From IMG/VR virus record IMGVR_UViG_3300002461_000857: a stretch of DNA of 64,000 nucleotides. One strand, given 5' to 3'. Below, in pieces: positions 587 through 14,043 of this stretch. The notes below the pieces were generated by a model. That model worked only from the letters and a program-made list of their open reading frames with translations, was not told the origin of the DNA and searched no databases. The stretch comes from a virus. Both the position numbers and the translations under genes were made by a program. The stretch's first letter is position 1. Every line of letters starts with the position of its first letter.

Positions 587-652
587 CTTCCCCGTTCAGC
601 GAGGGCCTGCGGCACTCTCCAGGGGCATCACATCGGGCATGCCCTGCCCTAG
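587..652. repeat. Copy 1 of a duplicated structured non-coding element
   Basis: 610-652 matches 12646-12688 at 42/43 nt; 587-607 matches 12592-12612 at 18/21 nt. Confidence 0.9.
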
Positions 653-3320: not shown

Positions 3321-3715
3321 ACCGGTGTCTCCAGGAGGTCGGCCGCGAGCTCGTACCCGGCGGCGAGTCGGAATCGATCAGTGTTCTCCAGATGGTCGAC
3401 GTAGGGCATCTTGCGGAGCTTTCCGGCCTCCGTACGCAGGTCTTTGATGCACTTCGAACGTTCGTCGCTCTTCACCTTCTCCTTGGCGATGCGCTCCTTC
3501 ACGTCGGCGAGCTTATCGCACTCATTCTCCTTCACGTCAGCTTTCGGTTCGGCTCCGAACTCCTTCGCGAGCAGAACGTCCACCTCCCGGCGAAGTTCGG
3601 CGAGTGATGAGGACGCGAACCTGGCGACGCTTGTTGCCAGACGGATCGATTCGAACGTCACGTCGACGCATGCGTGGAACAGATCGATGGACGCTGGCTT
3701 GATGTCTGCGATCAT
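3317..3715 (-). CDS. Hypothetical protein (MIADIKP...)
   Basis: AGGAG RBS; ATG at 3715 overlaps the tnpB stop codon (ATGA). Confidence 0.65.
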   Translation of the reverse strand: MIADIKPASIDLFHACVDVTFESIRLATSVARFASSSLAELRREVDVLLAKEFGAEPKADVKENECDKLADVKERIAKEKVKSDERSKCIKDLRTEAGKLRKMPYVDHLENTDRFRLAAGYELAADLLETPV

Positions 3716-5004
3716 GGAGATGCTCCTTGCTCTGCACTGTCTCGCCCGGACTGGAGTTGAAGCATCGCGGTATTGATCTGCCTCGTCGTCGTAATCTTGC
3801 ACGACTCACACCTGAACCGCGACGACGGATGCTCCTCGGGCTCGTTCACGTGACCGCACTTATGGCACTGAAGGTTGGTCGGGGCATGCGAATCAGTAAC
3901 GATGAGATTCGATCCGTACCACTTCGACTTGTACTCGAGCTGCAAGCGGAGCTGGCCCCATGCGGCGTCGTGGATCCTCCGTCGTGATTCCCGACGCATC
4001 TGCGATCGTGTCGATCTTCGGGGCGTAGAGTCTTCCGAGACGGTGGTCTTCCTCTTCACCAGGCTGGCGATGTTGAATCCTTCGACGACGACATGTGACG
4101 CCGTCGTGGCGAGACGCTTGCTGATCTTGTGGATCGCGTCAGTCCTCTGATCTGCGATCTCCGCGTGGAGCTTCGCGATCTTCATGCGCAGCTTCTCGCG
4201 GTTCTTGCCCTCGCCCTTGTTCTTCCCGTTCAGCTTCCTCTGGAAGAGACGCTGAAGGTGCTCGAGCTTCCGAAGCTTGGACTCGAGGTGGCGTCCGGGT
4301 TCCTCTTCGATGACCGAGCCATCACTTCCCACACACGTGAGTCGATGGTTCAGGCCCAGGTCGACGCCGATGATCGGCCCCTTAATCGGCTCGGGATCTG
4401 GACGCTCCCTTCGCACCATGATCGTGGCGTACCAATGATCTGCACGACGACAGATCGAGATCCTGAGGATCTTTCCGTCGAGGTAGCGGCCCTTGCCTGA
4501 CGCGAGTCTCTCTGCCCCCTTCGCGTCTGGAGTCGGACTCACGTACTCCGAGACGCGGACCATGCCGATCTTCCCCAGCTTGATCGATCGTGGCGTCGAC
4601 CGGAAGCTCTGGTCCTGGATCGTGAAGGCGTCCCTGGACTTCCCCTTCGCCTTGAACCGAGGATGACCAGCCTTGACGTCCGATCCTCCACGCTTCTCCT
4701 TCACGCGTCGGAAGAAGTGCTTGTACGCGTCGTCCATCGCCGTGATCGCGTAGCTCGCAACGTTGGCGATCAGCTCGCGAGACCACTCGGGCTTCTCCTG
4801 CGTCCAGTGCCGAGAGATGTCGAAGGCCGAGAGCCGAGGCTCCTTCTCTTCCTTCGGAAGATCCTTGTTCTTCTCCCACCACGCTATCCGCTTCGCGAGG
4901 GCCCAGTTGAAAATGAACCTCGCCATGCCGGCGTGCTTCCGGAACAAGACCTCTTGCTCCGGGTTGAGCTCGAGCCGATACCGGAACGCCTCGTGGACTT
5001 CCAT
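3712..5004 (-). CDS. tnpB: TnpB/Cas12f-like protein with substituted RuvC-III residue (probably nuclease-dead, TldR-like)
   Basis: N-terminal AFRYRLELNPEQ...ARFIFNWAL (OrfB HTH), RuvC-I IGVDLG, RuvC-II VVVEGF, Zn finger CHKC...CESC, RuvC-III region TRQINTA instead of DRDxNAA; alternative GTG start at 5022. Confidence 0.9.
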   Translation of the reverse strand: MEVHEAFRYRLELNPEQEVLFRKHAGMARFIFNWALAKRIAWWEKNKDLPKEEKEPRLSAFDISRHWTQEKPEWSRELIANVASYAITAMDDAYKHFFRRVKEKRGGSDVKAGHPRFKAKGKSRDAFTIQDQSFRSTPRSIKLGKIGMVRVSEYVSPTPDAKGAERLASGKGRYLDGKILRISICRRADHWYATIMVRRERPDPEPIKGPIIGVDLGLNHRLTCVGSDGSVIEEEPGRHLESKLRKLEHLQRLFQRKLNGKNKGEGKNREKLRMKIAKLHAEIADQRTDAIHKISKRLATTASHVVVEGFNIASLVKRKTTVSEDSTPRRSTRSQMRRESRRRIHDAAWGQLRLQLEYKSKWYGSNLIVTDSHAPTNLQCHKCGHVNEPEEHPSSRFRCESCKITTTRQINTAMLQLQSGRDSAEQGASP

Positions 5005-11580: not shown

Positions 11581-11813
11581 ACATCGAGCCGATCTACGTG
11601 GCGCTGATGCGTCTCCACGAGCAGCGTGGATCGTTCGAGGAGGCCCGGGCCGACCTGCTCGAGTTCGTCCTGTACGCGCTTCCGAACGATCGTCGGATCC
11701 CGATCAACATCGAGGCTGCCAGGCTACTTCTCGCGTGGAAGGAGTATGAGAAGGAGCTCGTCTCCTCCCCGGACATCGACGACGATCGATCGACGTCTAT
11801 CCGATCCAGATGA
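11565..11813 (+). CDS. Hypothetical protein
   Basis: Overlaps the end of the previous ORF; helical composition. Confidence 0.55.
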   Translation: MGQQLDIEPIYVALMRLHEQRGSFEEARADLLEFVLYALPNDRRIPINIEAARLLLAWKEYEKELVSSPDIDDDRSTSIRSR

Positions 11814-11957
11814 GGACACGGACCACCGCCTCGATCGCGTATCCGATCCCTCCGAGGATCCCCACGATGAAGGCCGAGATGACGAAGATCTCCCACTTGC
11901 TCCTGAGCGGATGTTCGTGAGGTCTTGGTCCATCCGTCTTGACTGATCCATCCACAG

Positions 11958-12452
11958 CTGGCACCTGATCCTGCTCTTCCGACCCGATACGAGTGTATTC
12001 CGCGACGACCCGTGGCACTGGGTTCTGCTCTTCCGACCCGATGCGAGCGTGTGGTTCCGATTCACATCGTCGACTAAACCCCTTCTGGCACCGTGTCCTG
12101 CTCTTCTGATCCGGTGCGAGAACACCGCTCGATCGACCTCCGCGCGGGATTGAAGGACCCTGGCACTGGGGCGACAGCTTCCGAGCGCGAGCGGCACTCT
12201 CGGTCTGGCACCTGATCCTGATCTTCCGACCCGGTACGATGCGCGCCGCACCCGAAGTGCAAGCGATCGGGGACCCTGGCACCGGGTCCTGCTCTTCCGA
12301 CCCGGTACGAGGACGATGCCGGCGCTCGACCTCGAGCGACTTGAGCCTGGCACTGGGTCCTGCTCTTCCGACCCGGTGCGAGGGGGTGCTGGGAGGGGAC
12401 CGTGAACCTGCAACTCCTGGCACTGGGTCCTGCTCTTCCGACCCGGTGCGAG
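11958..12452. CRISPR. Orphan CRISPR-like array: 8 x 36-bp hairpin repeats, no cas genes in the window
   Basis: Consensus CTGGCACTGGGTCCTGCTCTTCCGACCCGGTGCGAG; repeats start at 11958, 12012, 12085, 12160 (degenerate), 12205, 12276, 12347, 12417; spacers 18, 37, 39, 13, 35, 35, 34 nt; the two rightmost repeats are identical and degeneracy increases leftwards. Confidence 0.65.
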
Positions 12453-12591
12453 GGTCACGTTTGGGCTCGGATCACGGTACCGCATGGTCAAGTTCGAGGT
12501 CAGGATCTCGCACGCACCTCGGCGCGTGGACGATCCCCGGTCTTGCGTGCGTTGCTCCATTCGTCTCGCGTCGGATCGGAAGTTCAGGACA

Positions 12592-12688
12592 CTTCCCCGT
12601 TCGTAGAGGGCCACCTCGATCCGAAAGACTCGGGTCGAGGTTTGACGGCACTCTCCGGGGGCATCACATCGGGCATGCCCTGCCCTAG
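12592..12688. repeat. Copy 2 of the duplicated structured element, with an extra 29-nt hairpin
   Basis: Matches 587-652; insertion 12613-12641 ACCTCGATCCGA-AAGAC-TCGGGTCGAGGT folds on itself. Confidence 0.9.
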
Positions 12689-12788
12689 ACCAGCTCAATG
12701 CCGGCGACGTCGACCCTGCCACGGATCGGCATCTCTCGGCAAGGGAAAAGTTTCCGGACCGGCACCGTGATCGGGTTATCCTAGATCG

Positions 12789-13322
12789 ATGCGAATCTCC
12801 GCCATCAGCCCCGAACTTCTCCCTCCTCTCGATGCCAGGCTCATGGAGCTCGGCCTCGTTCCGATCCAGGCCGTGGTGACACCCAACTGCGGGGATTACG
12901 GTCATCCCCTTGATCTCGAACTGAAACCCGATCGGGAGCTTCGACTGATCGGAATCTCGAGTCATGCCGATCCGAACATCTACTGGATCAATCAGATCTG
13001 CGTGAACGACAGAGTCATTCTCAAGGAGATCGATCTGTCAACCTTCTGCTGCAATCACATCGTTCCGTTTGCATTCGGAGACAACTCCGTCGTCGCTCCT
13101 TGCGATCGACCCGCTCCGATCACTTTCCGAATCTCTTTCATGTGCCACCCGTCCGCGCCTCCGACGTTCAGCTTGACGCTCTGGGGATGTGTCGAAGGCG
13201 ACGAGACCAAGAAGGTCGATCCTCGGCTCGTTCGGGTGCTTCGGGAACTGAAGGCGTCCTCGTACAAGGTCACCGATCCGCAGATCCTTGCGATGTTCGA
13301 CAAGTACGCGGAGTGGATCTAG
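12789..13322 (+). CDS. Hypothetical beta-sandwich-like protein
   Basis: 177-aa ORF with alternating hydrophobic strands ending FSLTLWG. Confidence 0.6.
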   Translation: MRISAISPELLPPLDARLMELGLVPIQAVVTPNCGDYGHPLDLELKPDRELRLIGISSHADPNIYWINQICVNDRVILKEIDLSTFCCNHIVPFAFGDNSVVAPCDRPAPITFRISFMCHPSAPPTFSLTLWGCVEGDETKKVDPRLVRVLRELKASSYKVTDPQILAMFDKYAEWI

Positions 13323-13717: not shown

Positions 13718-14043
13718 CTTGTCAGTCCTTCGGACAGGATCATCGATCGTCTCGACACCAGTACGTGCCAACACGTACTGCGTCGGTTGTTCTCGCTCTT
13801 GGTCACCGGCTCGAGGTGGTCCGGGTTGACGCAGCACCTGGTTCGGCACAGGTGGTCGAGGTCCTTCTTTCTAGGGATCTTGCGGCGCATGAGCTCGAAG
13901 ATGACCCTGTGGGCCATCCTTGCCTTGCCCTTGACGCGGATCGATCCGTAGCCCTGGCTGGATGTGGCCCCGATCCACAACCAGCACCCGCTGTTGGGTT
14001 CGATCGAGATCCTTCCCTCGTAGCGATGGATCGGCGACGTCAC
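13714..14043 (-). CDS. HNH endonuclease (HNH_3 type)
   Basis: GCWLWIG...GYG...AHRV...DHLCRTRCCVNPDHLEPVTKSEN; GTG start overlaps the upstream TGA. Confidence 0.85.
   Translation of the reverse strand: MTSPIHRYEGRISIEPNSGCWLWIGATSSQGYGSIRVKGKARMAHRVIFELMRRKIPRKKDLDHLCRTRCCVNPDHLEPVTKSENNRRSTCWHVLVSRRSMILSEGLTR

What the first reader, a model, noticed from the sequence alone, without database searches (positions are those of the whole stretch)
11958..12452. Orphan virus-borne CRISPR-like array with an unusual, fully self-pairing 36-nt repeat
Seen: 8 repeats with periods 54, 73, 75, 45, 71, 71, 70 nt. The intact periods are not multiples of 3, so the array is not coding. The repeat folds end to end (10-bp stem plus two terminal pairs, 10-nt loop) and lacks a GAAAC/GAAAG-type end. 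Degeneracy increases leftwards, so the leader side is probably the right. Wobble-compatible substitutions are split between strands, so orientation is unresolved. No cas gene is in the window. Several spacers share GACC next to the repeat. Inference: a mini-array hijacking a host effector, or the guide source for the dead TnpB. A non-CRISPR alternative is a protein-sponge RNA, since the minus-strand loop region carries two GGA motifs like CsrA/RsmA sites.
Basis: partly seen in the sequence, partly recalled or inferred. Interest (0 to 1): 0.8.

Follow-up and report, generated by a model that had tools for sequence, protein, structure and literature searches.

The report
Cas-less CRISPR-like arrays with structured leader
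The repeat array is real and is one of five near-identical "array plus 230-base conserved leader" modules in a 175-kb phage-like element that has no cas genes, so it looks like a CRISPR array whose machinery lies elsewhere, and how it works is unproven.

Summary
Observation confirmed. Window 11958-12452 holds eight copies of a 36-nt, almost fully self-pairing repeat, with unique spacers and degeneracy increasing leftwards.

New findings:
- The array is one of five paralogous modules on a single 175,068-nt contig from an activated-carbon metagenome.
- Each array abuts the same ~230-nt structured flank on its well-conserved side. The flank starts with a conserved 36-nt linker and an inverted, degenerate repeat copy (an "anti-repeat").
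- Fourteen of 24 spacers are 34-39 nt and they are unrelated to each other.
- A ~92%-identical soil relative keeps the repeats and neighbouring DNA at this locus but has different spacers.
- I read 96% of the contig and found no cas gene. The only RNA-guided-type protein is a TnpB with its RuvC-III Asp replaced by Gln, a change conserved across its clade.
- A tRNA-Glu gene sits inside one repeat of another module, pointing flank-to-array.
- No protospacer, no Rfam family, no similar repeat in 185,579 species genomes (one exact 20-nt word) and no RNA data were found.

Best reading (about 0.45): orphan CRISPR-type arrays with leaders, served in trans, probably transcribed on the window's minus strand. 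Rivals are a Cas-titrating decoy RNA, guide arrays for the dead TnpB, and a REP-like or DNA-level hairpin element. The scan had already noted the partial flank copy and the dead TnpB on this window.

The parts
11958..12452 (-). Array of eight 36-nt hairpin repeats (starts 11958, 12012, 12085, 12160, 12205, 12276, 12347, 12417) and seven spacers of 18, 37, 39, 9, 35, 35 and 34 nt. The strand is inferred, not shown.
   Evidence: The hairpin pairs in 88% of cells on the minus strand and 81% on the plus strand.
12453..12528 (-). Segment found only in this module: a 35-nt spacer-like stretch plus a heavily decayed repeat copy. In the other four modules the last repeat joins the flank directly.
   Evidence: Alignments. 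Contigs of soil relatives cover it with 2-12 differences per 81-127 nt, unlike the true spacers (table 8).
12529..12564 (-). Conserved 36-nt linker, spacer-sized and nearly identical in all five modules, between the array and the inverted repeat copy.
   Evidence: It has no other copy in the window.
12565..12600 (-). Inverted, degenerate copy of the repeat, including its loop ('anti-repeat'). In the other four modules, where the last repeat joins the linker directly, it is predicted to pair with that repeat over about 26-27 bp.
   Evidence: hits on the opposite strand in every module. Minimum-energy folds of both strands of module M4 form this long stem; M1 itself was not folded.
12592..12688 (-). 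Most conserved core of the flank: a long imperfect helix capped by a 29-nt hairpin (12613-12641), followed by a G+C-rich palindrome.
   Evidence: One compensatory A-T to C-G change in the hairpin. A covariance model finds only 5 full copies and 1 partial copy in 250 kb.
12689..12770 (-). Outer part of the conserved flank (further hairpins). Conservation stops near 12765-12770, 24 nt before the start codon of the plus-strand gene 12789-13322.
   Evidence: Single-base indels between copies argue against coding.
587..652 (-). Sixth, partial copy of the flank core, without the 29-nt hairpin and without an array. It lies 22 nt after the stop of the minus-strand operon that contains the dead tnpB.
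   Evidence: 72 bits.
3712..5004 (-). TnpB homologue (430 aa) with RuvC-I Asp and RuvC-II Glu kept and RuvC-III Asp replaced by Gln. It is the only RNA-guided-type protein on the contig. A link to the array is not shown.

Best explanation
The array is one of five paralogous, cas-less CRISPR-type arrays on a 175-kb phage-like element. Each array has its own conserved ~230-nt leader.

Inferred mechanism:
1. New repeat-spacer units are added at the leader-proximal intact repeat by an integrase that works with a length ruler. This is most simply the Cas1-Cas2 of the unknown host, or of another replicon.
2. That mode of growth keeps the proximal repeats identical, makes the spacers unique and about 35-38 nt long, and leaves the far end to decay by point changes and small deletions.
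3. The module is transcribed from the leader into the array, on the window's minus strand.
4. Each repeat folds into a 13-pair hairpin. The leader's inverted repeat copy can pair with a repeat, as a tracrRNA anti-repeat does.
5. The resulting guide RNAs are used by an effector that the element does not recognisably encode, for example against competing elements.

Shown: the anatomy, the five copies, the polarity, spacer uniqueness and turnover, and the absence of recognisable cas genes on the contig.

Inferred: the acquisition mechanism, the transcribed strand, RNA processing, and the use of a trans-acting effector.
For: - Eight repeats with polar decay; chance expectation is zero.
- The same flank adjoins the conserved end of all five arrays at 92-95% identity, while DNA beyond it is unrelated.
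- All five modules and one partial core lie on one contig.
- Fourteen of 24 spacers are 34-39 nt, and no spacer-spacer homology exceeds shuffled controls, although neighbouring repeats are 36/36 identical.
- Spacer G+C equals genome G+C.
- A soil relative covers the left unique flank with 22 differences in 294 nt and keeps the repeats, but its mismatches pile up in the spacers and part of the array is missing (tables 3, 5, 8).
- The repeat hairpin keeps pairing through double changes at two stem positions.
- A tRNA-Glu gene inside module M3 points flank-to-array, and four of five modules point the same way as their neighbouring genes.
- Virus-borne arrays without cas genes are documented (PMC6858448, PMC10651486).
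Against: - No cas gene was found in 96% of the 175-kb contig, from precomputed Pfam tables and from PADLOC and NCBIfam scans of the ten largest unknown proteins.
- No spacer matches the element itself or cultured phages and plasmids. Two spacers tried against IMG/VR also gave nothing.
- The repeat's 20-nt core occurs in none of 185,579 species genomes, and no Rfam CRISPR-DR family matches.
- Ten of 24 spacers have odd lengths (6-27 nt, and one of 64).
- The repeat is a complete hairpin with no free handle, which no well-studied type uses.
- Five dispersed arrays and an inverted repeat copy in the leader are not standard.
- The leader is G+C-rich and has no recognisable promoter.
- In this module the leader-adjacent repeat is decayed, yet turnover occurred beyond it.
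Confidence: 0.45

Rival explanations
1. RNA decoy or sponge. The modules are expressed as multi-hairpin RNAs that titrate an RNA-binding protein. The target could be a host Cas6-type or crRNP component (an RNA anti-CRISPR built from captured arrays) or another hairpin- or GGA-binding protein. Only the hairpins matter and the spacers are filler.
For: - About 30 hairpins per genome in five modules.
- The loop is the most invariant part of the repeat.
- Spacer lengths are poorly kept in 10 of 24 cases, as expected if the spacers are not used.
- No cas genes and no protospacers were found.
- Racr-type repeat mimics in viruses are documented (PMC10651486).
- The minus-strand loop carries GGA motifs.
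Against: - This does not explain the tight 34-39-nt mode, nor why spacers are replaced while repeats and flank persist in a relative.
- No known CRISPR repeat family resembles the hairpin.
- The 165-nt structured part of the flank has no role in this model.
- No csrA-like gene was noted on the contig.
Confidence: 0.17
2. Guide-RNA modules for the nuclease-dead TnpB. Read on the minus strand, each module is a scaffold of about 165 nt, an anti-repeat, a 36-nt loop, a repeat and then a spacer. That is an omega-RNA or tracr-like single guide extended into an array. The RuvC-III-mutated TnpB would use these guides as a programmable DNA binder (TldR- or Cas12m-like).
For: - The TnpB is the only RNA-guided-type protein on the contig.
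- Its RuvC-III Asp is Gln in all 13 clade members at 45-96% identity, while canonical outgroups keep Asp, so the clade is domesticated.
- Its stop overlaps the next gene, leaving no usual 3' space for its own guide.
- The scaffold-before-guide order and the size fit type V and omega-RNA logic, and the repeat/anti-repeat stem is predicted on both strands.
- A partial flank core closes the tnpB operon.
- TldR proteins in phages are documented (10.1101/2023.11.30.569447).
Against: - No module is adjacent to tnpB. The nearest is 7 kb away and the other four are 15-100 kb away.
- Described TldR and TnpB guides are single and encoded next to the gene. A 2026 TldR preprint that I searched does not contain the word 'array'.
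- No spacer end matches the element beyond chance.
- The wobble pairs of the repeat/anti-repeat stem fit the plus strand better than the minus strand.
- Co-occurrence in relatives could not be tested.
Confidence: 0.1
3. A non-CRISPR structural or mobile hairpin element. This could be REP/BIME- or BOX-like intergenic modules that stabilise or terminate transcripts. It could also be strand-specific DNA signals (priming, recombination or partition sites). The hairpin copies would multiply locally by a CRISPR-independent route.
For: - The modules sit in intergenic gaps. In four of five, and at the partial copy, they start 4-22 nt after a stop codon.
- The hairpins form on either strand.
- Module 1 points the opposite way to modules 2-5, matching the prevailing gene direction of each arm.
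- An unrelated metagenome contig carries spacer-less tandem hairpins with the same 20-nt loop-and-stem core and a GTAG-type 5' end typical of REPs.
- A tRNA gene could insert into a repeat without harm.
Against: - All copies in an array are direct, not alternating as in BIMEs.
- No Y1/RAYT transposase appears in the Pfam tables.
- Identical repeats beside unrelated 35-38-nt spacers, polar decay and spacer replacement are not explained by duplication and drift.
- No target-site duplication was seen at module ends.
Confidence: 0.18

Closest known systems
Orphan and mini CRISPR arrays carried by viruses and other mobile elements (Sulfolobales viruses, huge phages)
   Same: Direct repeats with unique spacers on a virus-like element that has no cas genes. 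A leader-like conserved flank and polar repeat conservation. Spacer content differs between close relatives.
   Different: There are five arrays of 4-8 repeats per genome rather than 1-2 spacers. The repeat matches no known host repeat. No spacer has a known target. The repeat is a full 13-pair hairpin. The leader is G+C-rich, highly structured and contains an inverted repeat copy. Many spacers are truncated.
tracrRNA with array (types II, V-B/E/F) and the TnpB omega-RNA
   Same: A structured RNA-like region of about 200 nt lies next to the array and carries a stretch of about 26 nt complementary to the repeat. On the minus strand the order is scaffold, then anti-repeat, then repeat, then spacer.
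   Different: No Cas9, Cas12 or TnpB gene is adjacent. The repeat can also fold on itself. Neither strand reproduces every feature of a known tracr/crRNA pair. Expression is unknown.
RNA anti-CRISPRs (Racr, solitary repeat units)
   Same: Repeat-derived hairpins on a viral genome without cas genes, and many copies.
   Different: Racrs mimic an identifiable host repeat and usually stand alone with a promoter. Here the repeats are in polar arrays with ruler-length unique spacers, and no mimicked repeat is known.
REP/BIME and BOX-type intergenic repeat modules
   Same: Intergenic position, imperfect palindromes of about 36 nt, modular build with a variable number of hairpin units, multiple copies per genome.
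   Different: All units are in direct orientation. The spacers are unique and of a preferred length. A conserved 230-nt flank lies on one side only. No RAYT-type transposase was found.
Type III toxin-antitoxin RNA arrays (ToxI-like)
   Same: A 36-nt repeat unit in a phage context, and a non-coding repeat RNA.
   Different: ToxI units are contiguous without spacers and are followed by the toxin gene. Neither holds here.

Membership tests
CRISPR array | Near-identical direct repeats of 23-47 nt, regularly interspaced | tested here: met
   36-nt repeat, 8 copies here and 28 usable copies in five arrays, mean column identity 92%.
CRISPR array | Unique spacers of nearly constant length | tested here: inconclusive
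   Spacers are unrelated to each other. Fourteen of 24 are 34-39 nt, but nine are 6-27 nt and one is 64 nt.
CRISPR array | Conserved leader on one side, with the best-kept repeats next to it | tested here: met
   A ~230-nt flank, 92-95% identical in five modules, always on the side of the intact repeats. It is G+C-rich, unlike typical leaders.
CRISPR array | cas genes nearby, or a cas locus that uses the same repeat in the same cell | tested here: not met
   None in 168.9 kb of the 175-kb contig. The host is unknown. The 20-nt repeat core is absent from 185,579 species genomes, but only as an exact word.
CRISPR array | Spacers match protospacers in mobile elements | tested here: inconclusive
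   No match in the element, in cultured phages or plasmids, or in IMG/VR for two spacers. Large metagenome sets could not be scanned for spacers.
CRISPR array | Transcribed and cut into unit-length crRNAs | not testable with these tools
   No RNA run holds the locus.
tracrRNA / omega-RNA-type guide scaffold | Anti-repeat complementary to the repeat within a structured RNA | tested here: met
   An inverted repeat copy is present in every flank. The long stem is predicted on both strands, z about -3.6.
tracrRNA / omega-RNA-type guide scaffold | Encoded beside its effector gene (Cas9, Cas12, TnpB, IscB) | tested here: not met
   The only candidate, tnpB, is 7 kb from this module and 15-100 kb from the others.
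RNA anti-CRISPR (Racr) | Sequence and structure mimic of a known CRISPR repeat | tested here: not met
   No Rfam CRISPR-DR hit even at E up to 10. No genome hit with the core word.
REP/BIME | Alternating orientation of palindromes, a 5' GTAG-type motif and a RAYT transposase | tested here: not met
   All array copies are direct. The repeat (window 12417-12452) does not begin with GTAG. No Y1 transposase appears in the Pfam tables.
Type III TA antitoxin array | Contiguous tandem repeats followed by an endoribonuclease toxin gene | tested here: not met
   Unique spacers separate the repeats, and the downstream genes differ between modules.
TldR-like nuclease-dead TnpB (applies to the neighbouring gene, not to the array) | TnpB fold with RuvC active-site loss conserved in a clade | tested here: met
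   RuvC-III Asp to Gln in the query and 13 relatives. Asp is kept in canonical outgroups.

The most novel reading that the evidence does not exclude
The five modules are self-contained guide genes for the conserved nuclease-dead TnpB clade. Each would be an omega-RNA or tracr-like scaffold with an anti-repeat, grown into a spacer-acquiring array. That would be a living intermediate between a single-guide TnpB and a type V CRISPR system, used by a phage-like element as a multi-guide DNA-binding regulator.
Probability: 0.1. Interest if true: 0.92.

Novelty: new variant of a known kind. Interest (0 to 1): 0.6.

Why it matters
If these are working CRISPR arrays, a large phage-like element keeps five of them, each with its own leader, and no cas gene. 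That implies heavy reliance on machinery supplied in trans. It also implies a repeat and leader design not seen in studied types: a repeat that is a complete hairpin and a leader that carries an anti-repeat.

If they instead serve the conserved nuclease-dead TnpB, they would show how a single-guide transposon nuclease acquires an array. That step in the origin of type V CRISPR systems has so far only been inferred.

If they are decoys, they would be the largest RNA anti-CRISPR load described on one genome.

Each outcome can be tested with RNA-seq and a few sister genomes that are already known to exist.

Tried and rejected
**Coding repeat.** Rejected. The long minus-strand ORF is not kept in the paralogous arrays, and the flank copies differ by single-base indels.

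**Known RNA family.** Rfam gave nothing, either at gathering scores or at E up to 10.

**Sigma-54 promoter array.** The repeat starts with a -24-like hexamer, but the GC of the -12 element is one base out of register. Rejected by reading the sequence. The sigma-70 and terminator scan also found nothing.

**Relatives and targets**
- IMG/VR has no repeat core, no flank core, no match to the two spacers tried, and no close relative of the glycosyltransferase or of the sister contig's transposase.
- The species-genome collection has neither the repeat core nor the flank word.
- Cultured phages and plasmids have no related DNA and no dead-clade TnpB.
- Contigs carrying the closest radical-SAM homologues (61-64% identity) are different phages without modules.
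- A literature search by repeat sequence gave no hit.

**Expression.** No RNA holder is listed for the locus.

**Self-targeting.** Only chance-level partial matches, and the two best lie at opposite spacer ends.

**Proteins**
- No paralogous protein recurs next to the modules.
- The 890-aa protein gave no usable Atlas match.
- PADLOC and NCBIfam scans of the ten largest unknown proteins found nothing Cas-like.

**Other**
- The covariance model of the flank core found no further copies.
- Cumulative GC skew gave no clear origin or terminus to relate to module polarity.
- Whole-genome and host searches were not possible because no genome is held for the window or the loci.

Full report
**1.

Window 11958-12452 contains eight copies of a 36-nt repeat with periods 54, 73, 75, 45, 71, 71 and 70.
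- Six copies match the consensus at 3 mismatches or fewer, against none in 100 shuffles.
- The two rightmost copies are identical, and decay grows leftwards. The copy at 12160 is barely recognisable.
- The repeat (reference copy window:12417-12452) folds as two terminal pairs, a constant G/G mismatch, ten further pairs and a 10-nt pyrimidine-rich loop.
- The loop is the most invariant part across 28 copies.

The region 11814-12788 is non-coding by third-position G+C.
- A 413-aa minus-strand ORF runs across it because the repeat has no stop codon in any minus-strand frame.
- That ORF is broken into different frames in the paralogous arrays.
- No Rfam family matches the region.

**2. The array is one of five modules**

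A scan of metagenome contigs with the 20-nt core found further arrays. Each is followed on its well-conserved side by the same ~230-nt sequence that follows the window's array.

Look-ups by exact protein showed that all of these lie on the window's own source contig. It is a 175,068-nt contig of an activated-carbon metagenome, and the window is its reverse complement from 864 to 64863. I walked the contig until 96.5% of it was read.

The contig holds exactly five full modules and one partial flank core:

| Module | Location |
|---|---|
| M1 | the finding, window 11958-12770 |
| M2 | L012 9282-9773 |
| M3 | L012 14297-15001 |
| M4 | L010 1680-2360 |
| M5 | L010 11370-11913 |
| Partial core | window 587-652 (already noted by the scan, e1-5344155) |

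**3. Anatomy of the flank**

In M2-M5 the last repeat is followed directly by three elements:
- A 36-nt linker that is nearly identical in all modules.
- An inverted, degenerate copy of the repeat that includes the loop.
- About 165 nt of conserved, hairpin-rich sequence.

In M1 an extra 76 nt (12453-12528) separates the last intact repeat from the linker. It consists of a spacer-sized stretch plus a decayed repeat.

Folding either strand of M4 pairs the proximal repeat with the inverted copy in a stem of about 27 bp, while the next repeat folds on itself. The z-score is -3.6 against shuffles.

The five flanks are 92-95% identical, so covariation is thin.
- There is one clean compensatory change in the 29-nt hairpin.
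- Wobble-type changes point to different strands in different helices.
- Single-base indels between copies exclude a coding role.

**4. CRISPR-like behaviour**

Twenty-four spacers were recovered. Fourteen are 34-39 nt, nine are 6-27 nt and one is 64 nt (it contains a repeat remnant).
- Their G+C (0.617) equals that of the genome (0.611).
- Their best pairwise similarity does not exceed shuffled controls, although neighbouring repeats can be 36/36 identical.

Identical repeats beside unrelated, ruler-length spacers, with decay away from a conserved flank, is what leader-end acquisition produces. Tandem duplication followed by drift does not produce this pattern.

Contigs of soil metagenomes from other studies were laid on the locus.
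- One 1,675-nt contig matches the unique left flank with 22 differences in 294 nt. It keeps the first repeat, lacks 211 nt of the array, and then aligns through four repeats, with its mismatches concentrated in the spacers.
- So spacers turn over much faster than the surrounding DNA.
- By contrast the M1-specific 76 nt and the flank are conserved in those relatives.
- Depth over the flank core is about ten times that of the unique DNA, consistent with many copies per genome.

**5. What is missing**

No cas gene was found.
- The evidence is Pfam on about 40 window ORFs and 20 ORFs from the loci, precomputed Pfam tables for every locus fetched from the contig, and PADLOC and NCBIfam on the ten largest unknown proteins.
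- No protein family recurs next to the modules.

No spacer matches anything accessible.
- Nothing in the element beyond chance.
- Nothing in cultured phages or plasmids.
- Nothing in IMG/VR for two spacers.

The repeat core is absent from 185,579 species genomes and from IMG/VR, but this was tested only as an exact 20-nt word. No RNA run holds the locus.

The element is phage-like. It has dense small genes, five tRNAs, an integrase, HNH endonucleases, a primase-helicase and a terminase-like ATPase hit. No capsid gene was recognised, so 'virus-borne' is likely rather than shown.

**6. Strand**

Three observations favour the minus strand (flank to array):
- Hairpin pairing is 88% on the minus strand and 81% on the plus strand, with a slightly lower mean folding energy on the minus strand.
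- A tRNA-Glu gene inserted inside a repeat of M3 points that way.
- M2-M5 are co-directional with the surrounding gene clusters in that sense.

Two observations go the other way. The two wobble pairs of the repeat/anti-repeat stem work only on the plus strand. M1 is anti-directional to its immediate neighbours. I put the minus strand at about 65:35.

**7. The TnpB**

The 430-aa TnpB at 3712-5004 keeps RuvC-I Asp and RuvC-II Glu but has Gln in place of the RuvC-III Asp (aligned to the ISDra2 structure).
- The same Gln is present in all 13 relatives at 45-96% identity. Canonical outgroups keep Asp. It is therefore a domesticated, probably nuclease-dead clade, like TldR (10.1101/2023.11.30.569447).
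- Its stop overlaps the next gene, so the usual 3' guide region is missing.
- This makes a trans-encoded guide attractive, and the minus-strand order of the module (scaffold, anti-repeat, repeat, spacer) fits type V logic.
- However, no module is next to the gene. Described TldRs use one adjacent guide, and a 2026 TldR preprint I searched does not contain the word 'array'.

**8. Verdict**

The best-supported reading is a family of orphan CRISPR-type arrays with an unusual structured leader, dependent on machinery encoded elsewhere (0.45). The rivals are:
- a multi-hairpin decoy RNA (0.17);
- a REP/BOX-like or DNA-level hairpin element (0.18);
- guide arrays for the dead TnpB (0.10).

Membership in 'CRISPR array' is met for repeats, leader and polarity. 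It is inconclusive for spacer regularity and protospacers, and not met for cas association on the element. I therefore describe it as working like a CRISPR array without filing it under any type.

It is a new variant of a known kind. It becomes more than that only if the TnpB link or a new acquisition route is shown.

Noticed in passing
L012 14842-14914 (+), inside module M3 (same contig as the window): A tRNA-Glu(TTC) gene is inserted inside one array repeat, between its left arm and its loop, with a 5-nt duplication in the right arm. It points flank-to-array. It is the only one of the element's five tRNA genes that lies in a module.
   Followed up: partly
window 3712-5004 (-): TnpB with RuvC-III Asp replaced by Gln. 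The same change occurs in 13 relatives at 45-96% identity, and canonical TnpBs keep Asp. The clade also shares an Arg-rich insertion after RuvC-II and a short C-terminus. The nearest cultured relatives are IS607-type TnpBs at 31% identity or less.
   Followed up: yes
window 587-652: Partial copy of the flank core without array or anti-repeat, 22 nt after the stop of the tnpB operon. The 310 nt to its left hold only faint repeat and anti-repeat remnants, so it may be a decayed sixth module.
   Followed up: partly
L003 1090-1249 (contig ORJL011614428.1, another metagenome): Four tandem hairpin units of about 40 nt without spacers share the same 20-nt loop-plus-stem core as the repeat and have a GTAG-type 5' end typical of REP elements. 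This may be chance or a distant relative of the hairpin.
   Followed up: no
window 12789-13322 (+): The start codon of this 177-aa gene of unknown family lies only 24 nt beyond the outer end of the conserved flank. In the other four modules the same flank end abuts a stop codon instead.
   Followed up: no
L044 10405-11601 (+) (contig position about 110.9-112.1 kb): An IS4-type DDE transposase. Its best relative (P0122, 81% identity) lies on a 176,152-nt JGI contig, which is probably a sister genome of the same size. A named hit at 60% identity is from a Polyangia (Myxococcota) MAG, and radical-SAM relatives include Sorangium and Planctomycetes. These are weak hints about the host.
   Followed up: partly
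window 11797-12423 (-); L010 1940-2188; L012 14223-14972: Public gene calls place 'genes' of 82-249 aa across the arrays. These are artefacts of a repeat that lacks stop codons. Only the last ~35 codons of the window ORF (11797-11900) look like a real small membrane peptide.
   Followed up: partly
L006 19743-20501 (+) and L006 17078-18064 (+), just beyond the window's left end: A small RelA/SpoT-domain protein and an M23 peptidase lie in the same operon. A second M23 peptidase paralogue lies near the contig's far end.
   Followed up: no
window 13777-13861: The only nucleotide-level similarity of this region to cultured phages is an 84-nt stretch (79% identity) of an HNH endonuclease gene of Mycobacterium phages.
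   Followed up: no
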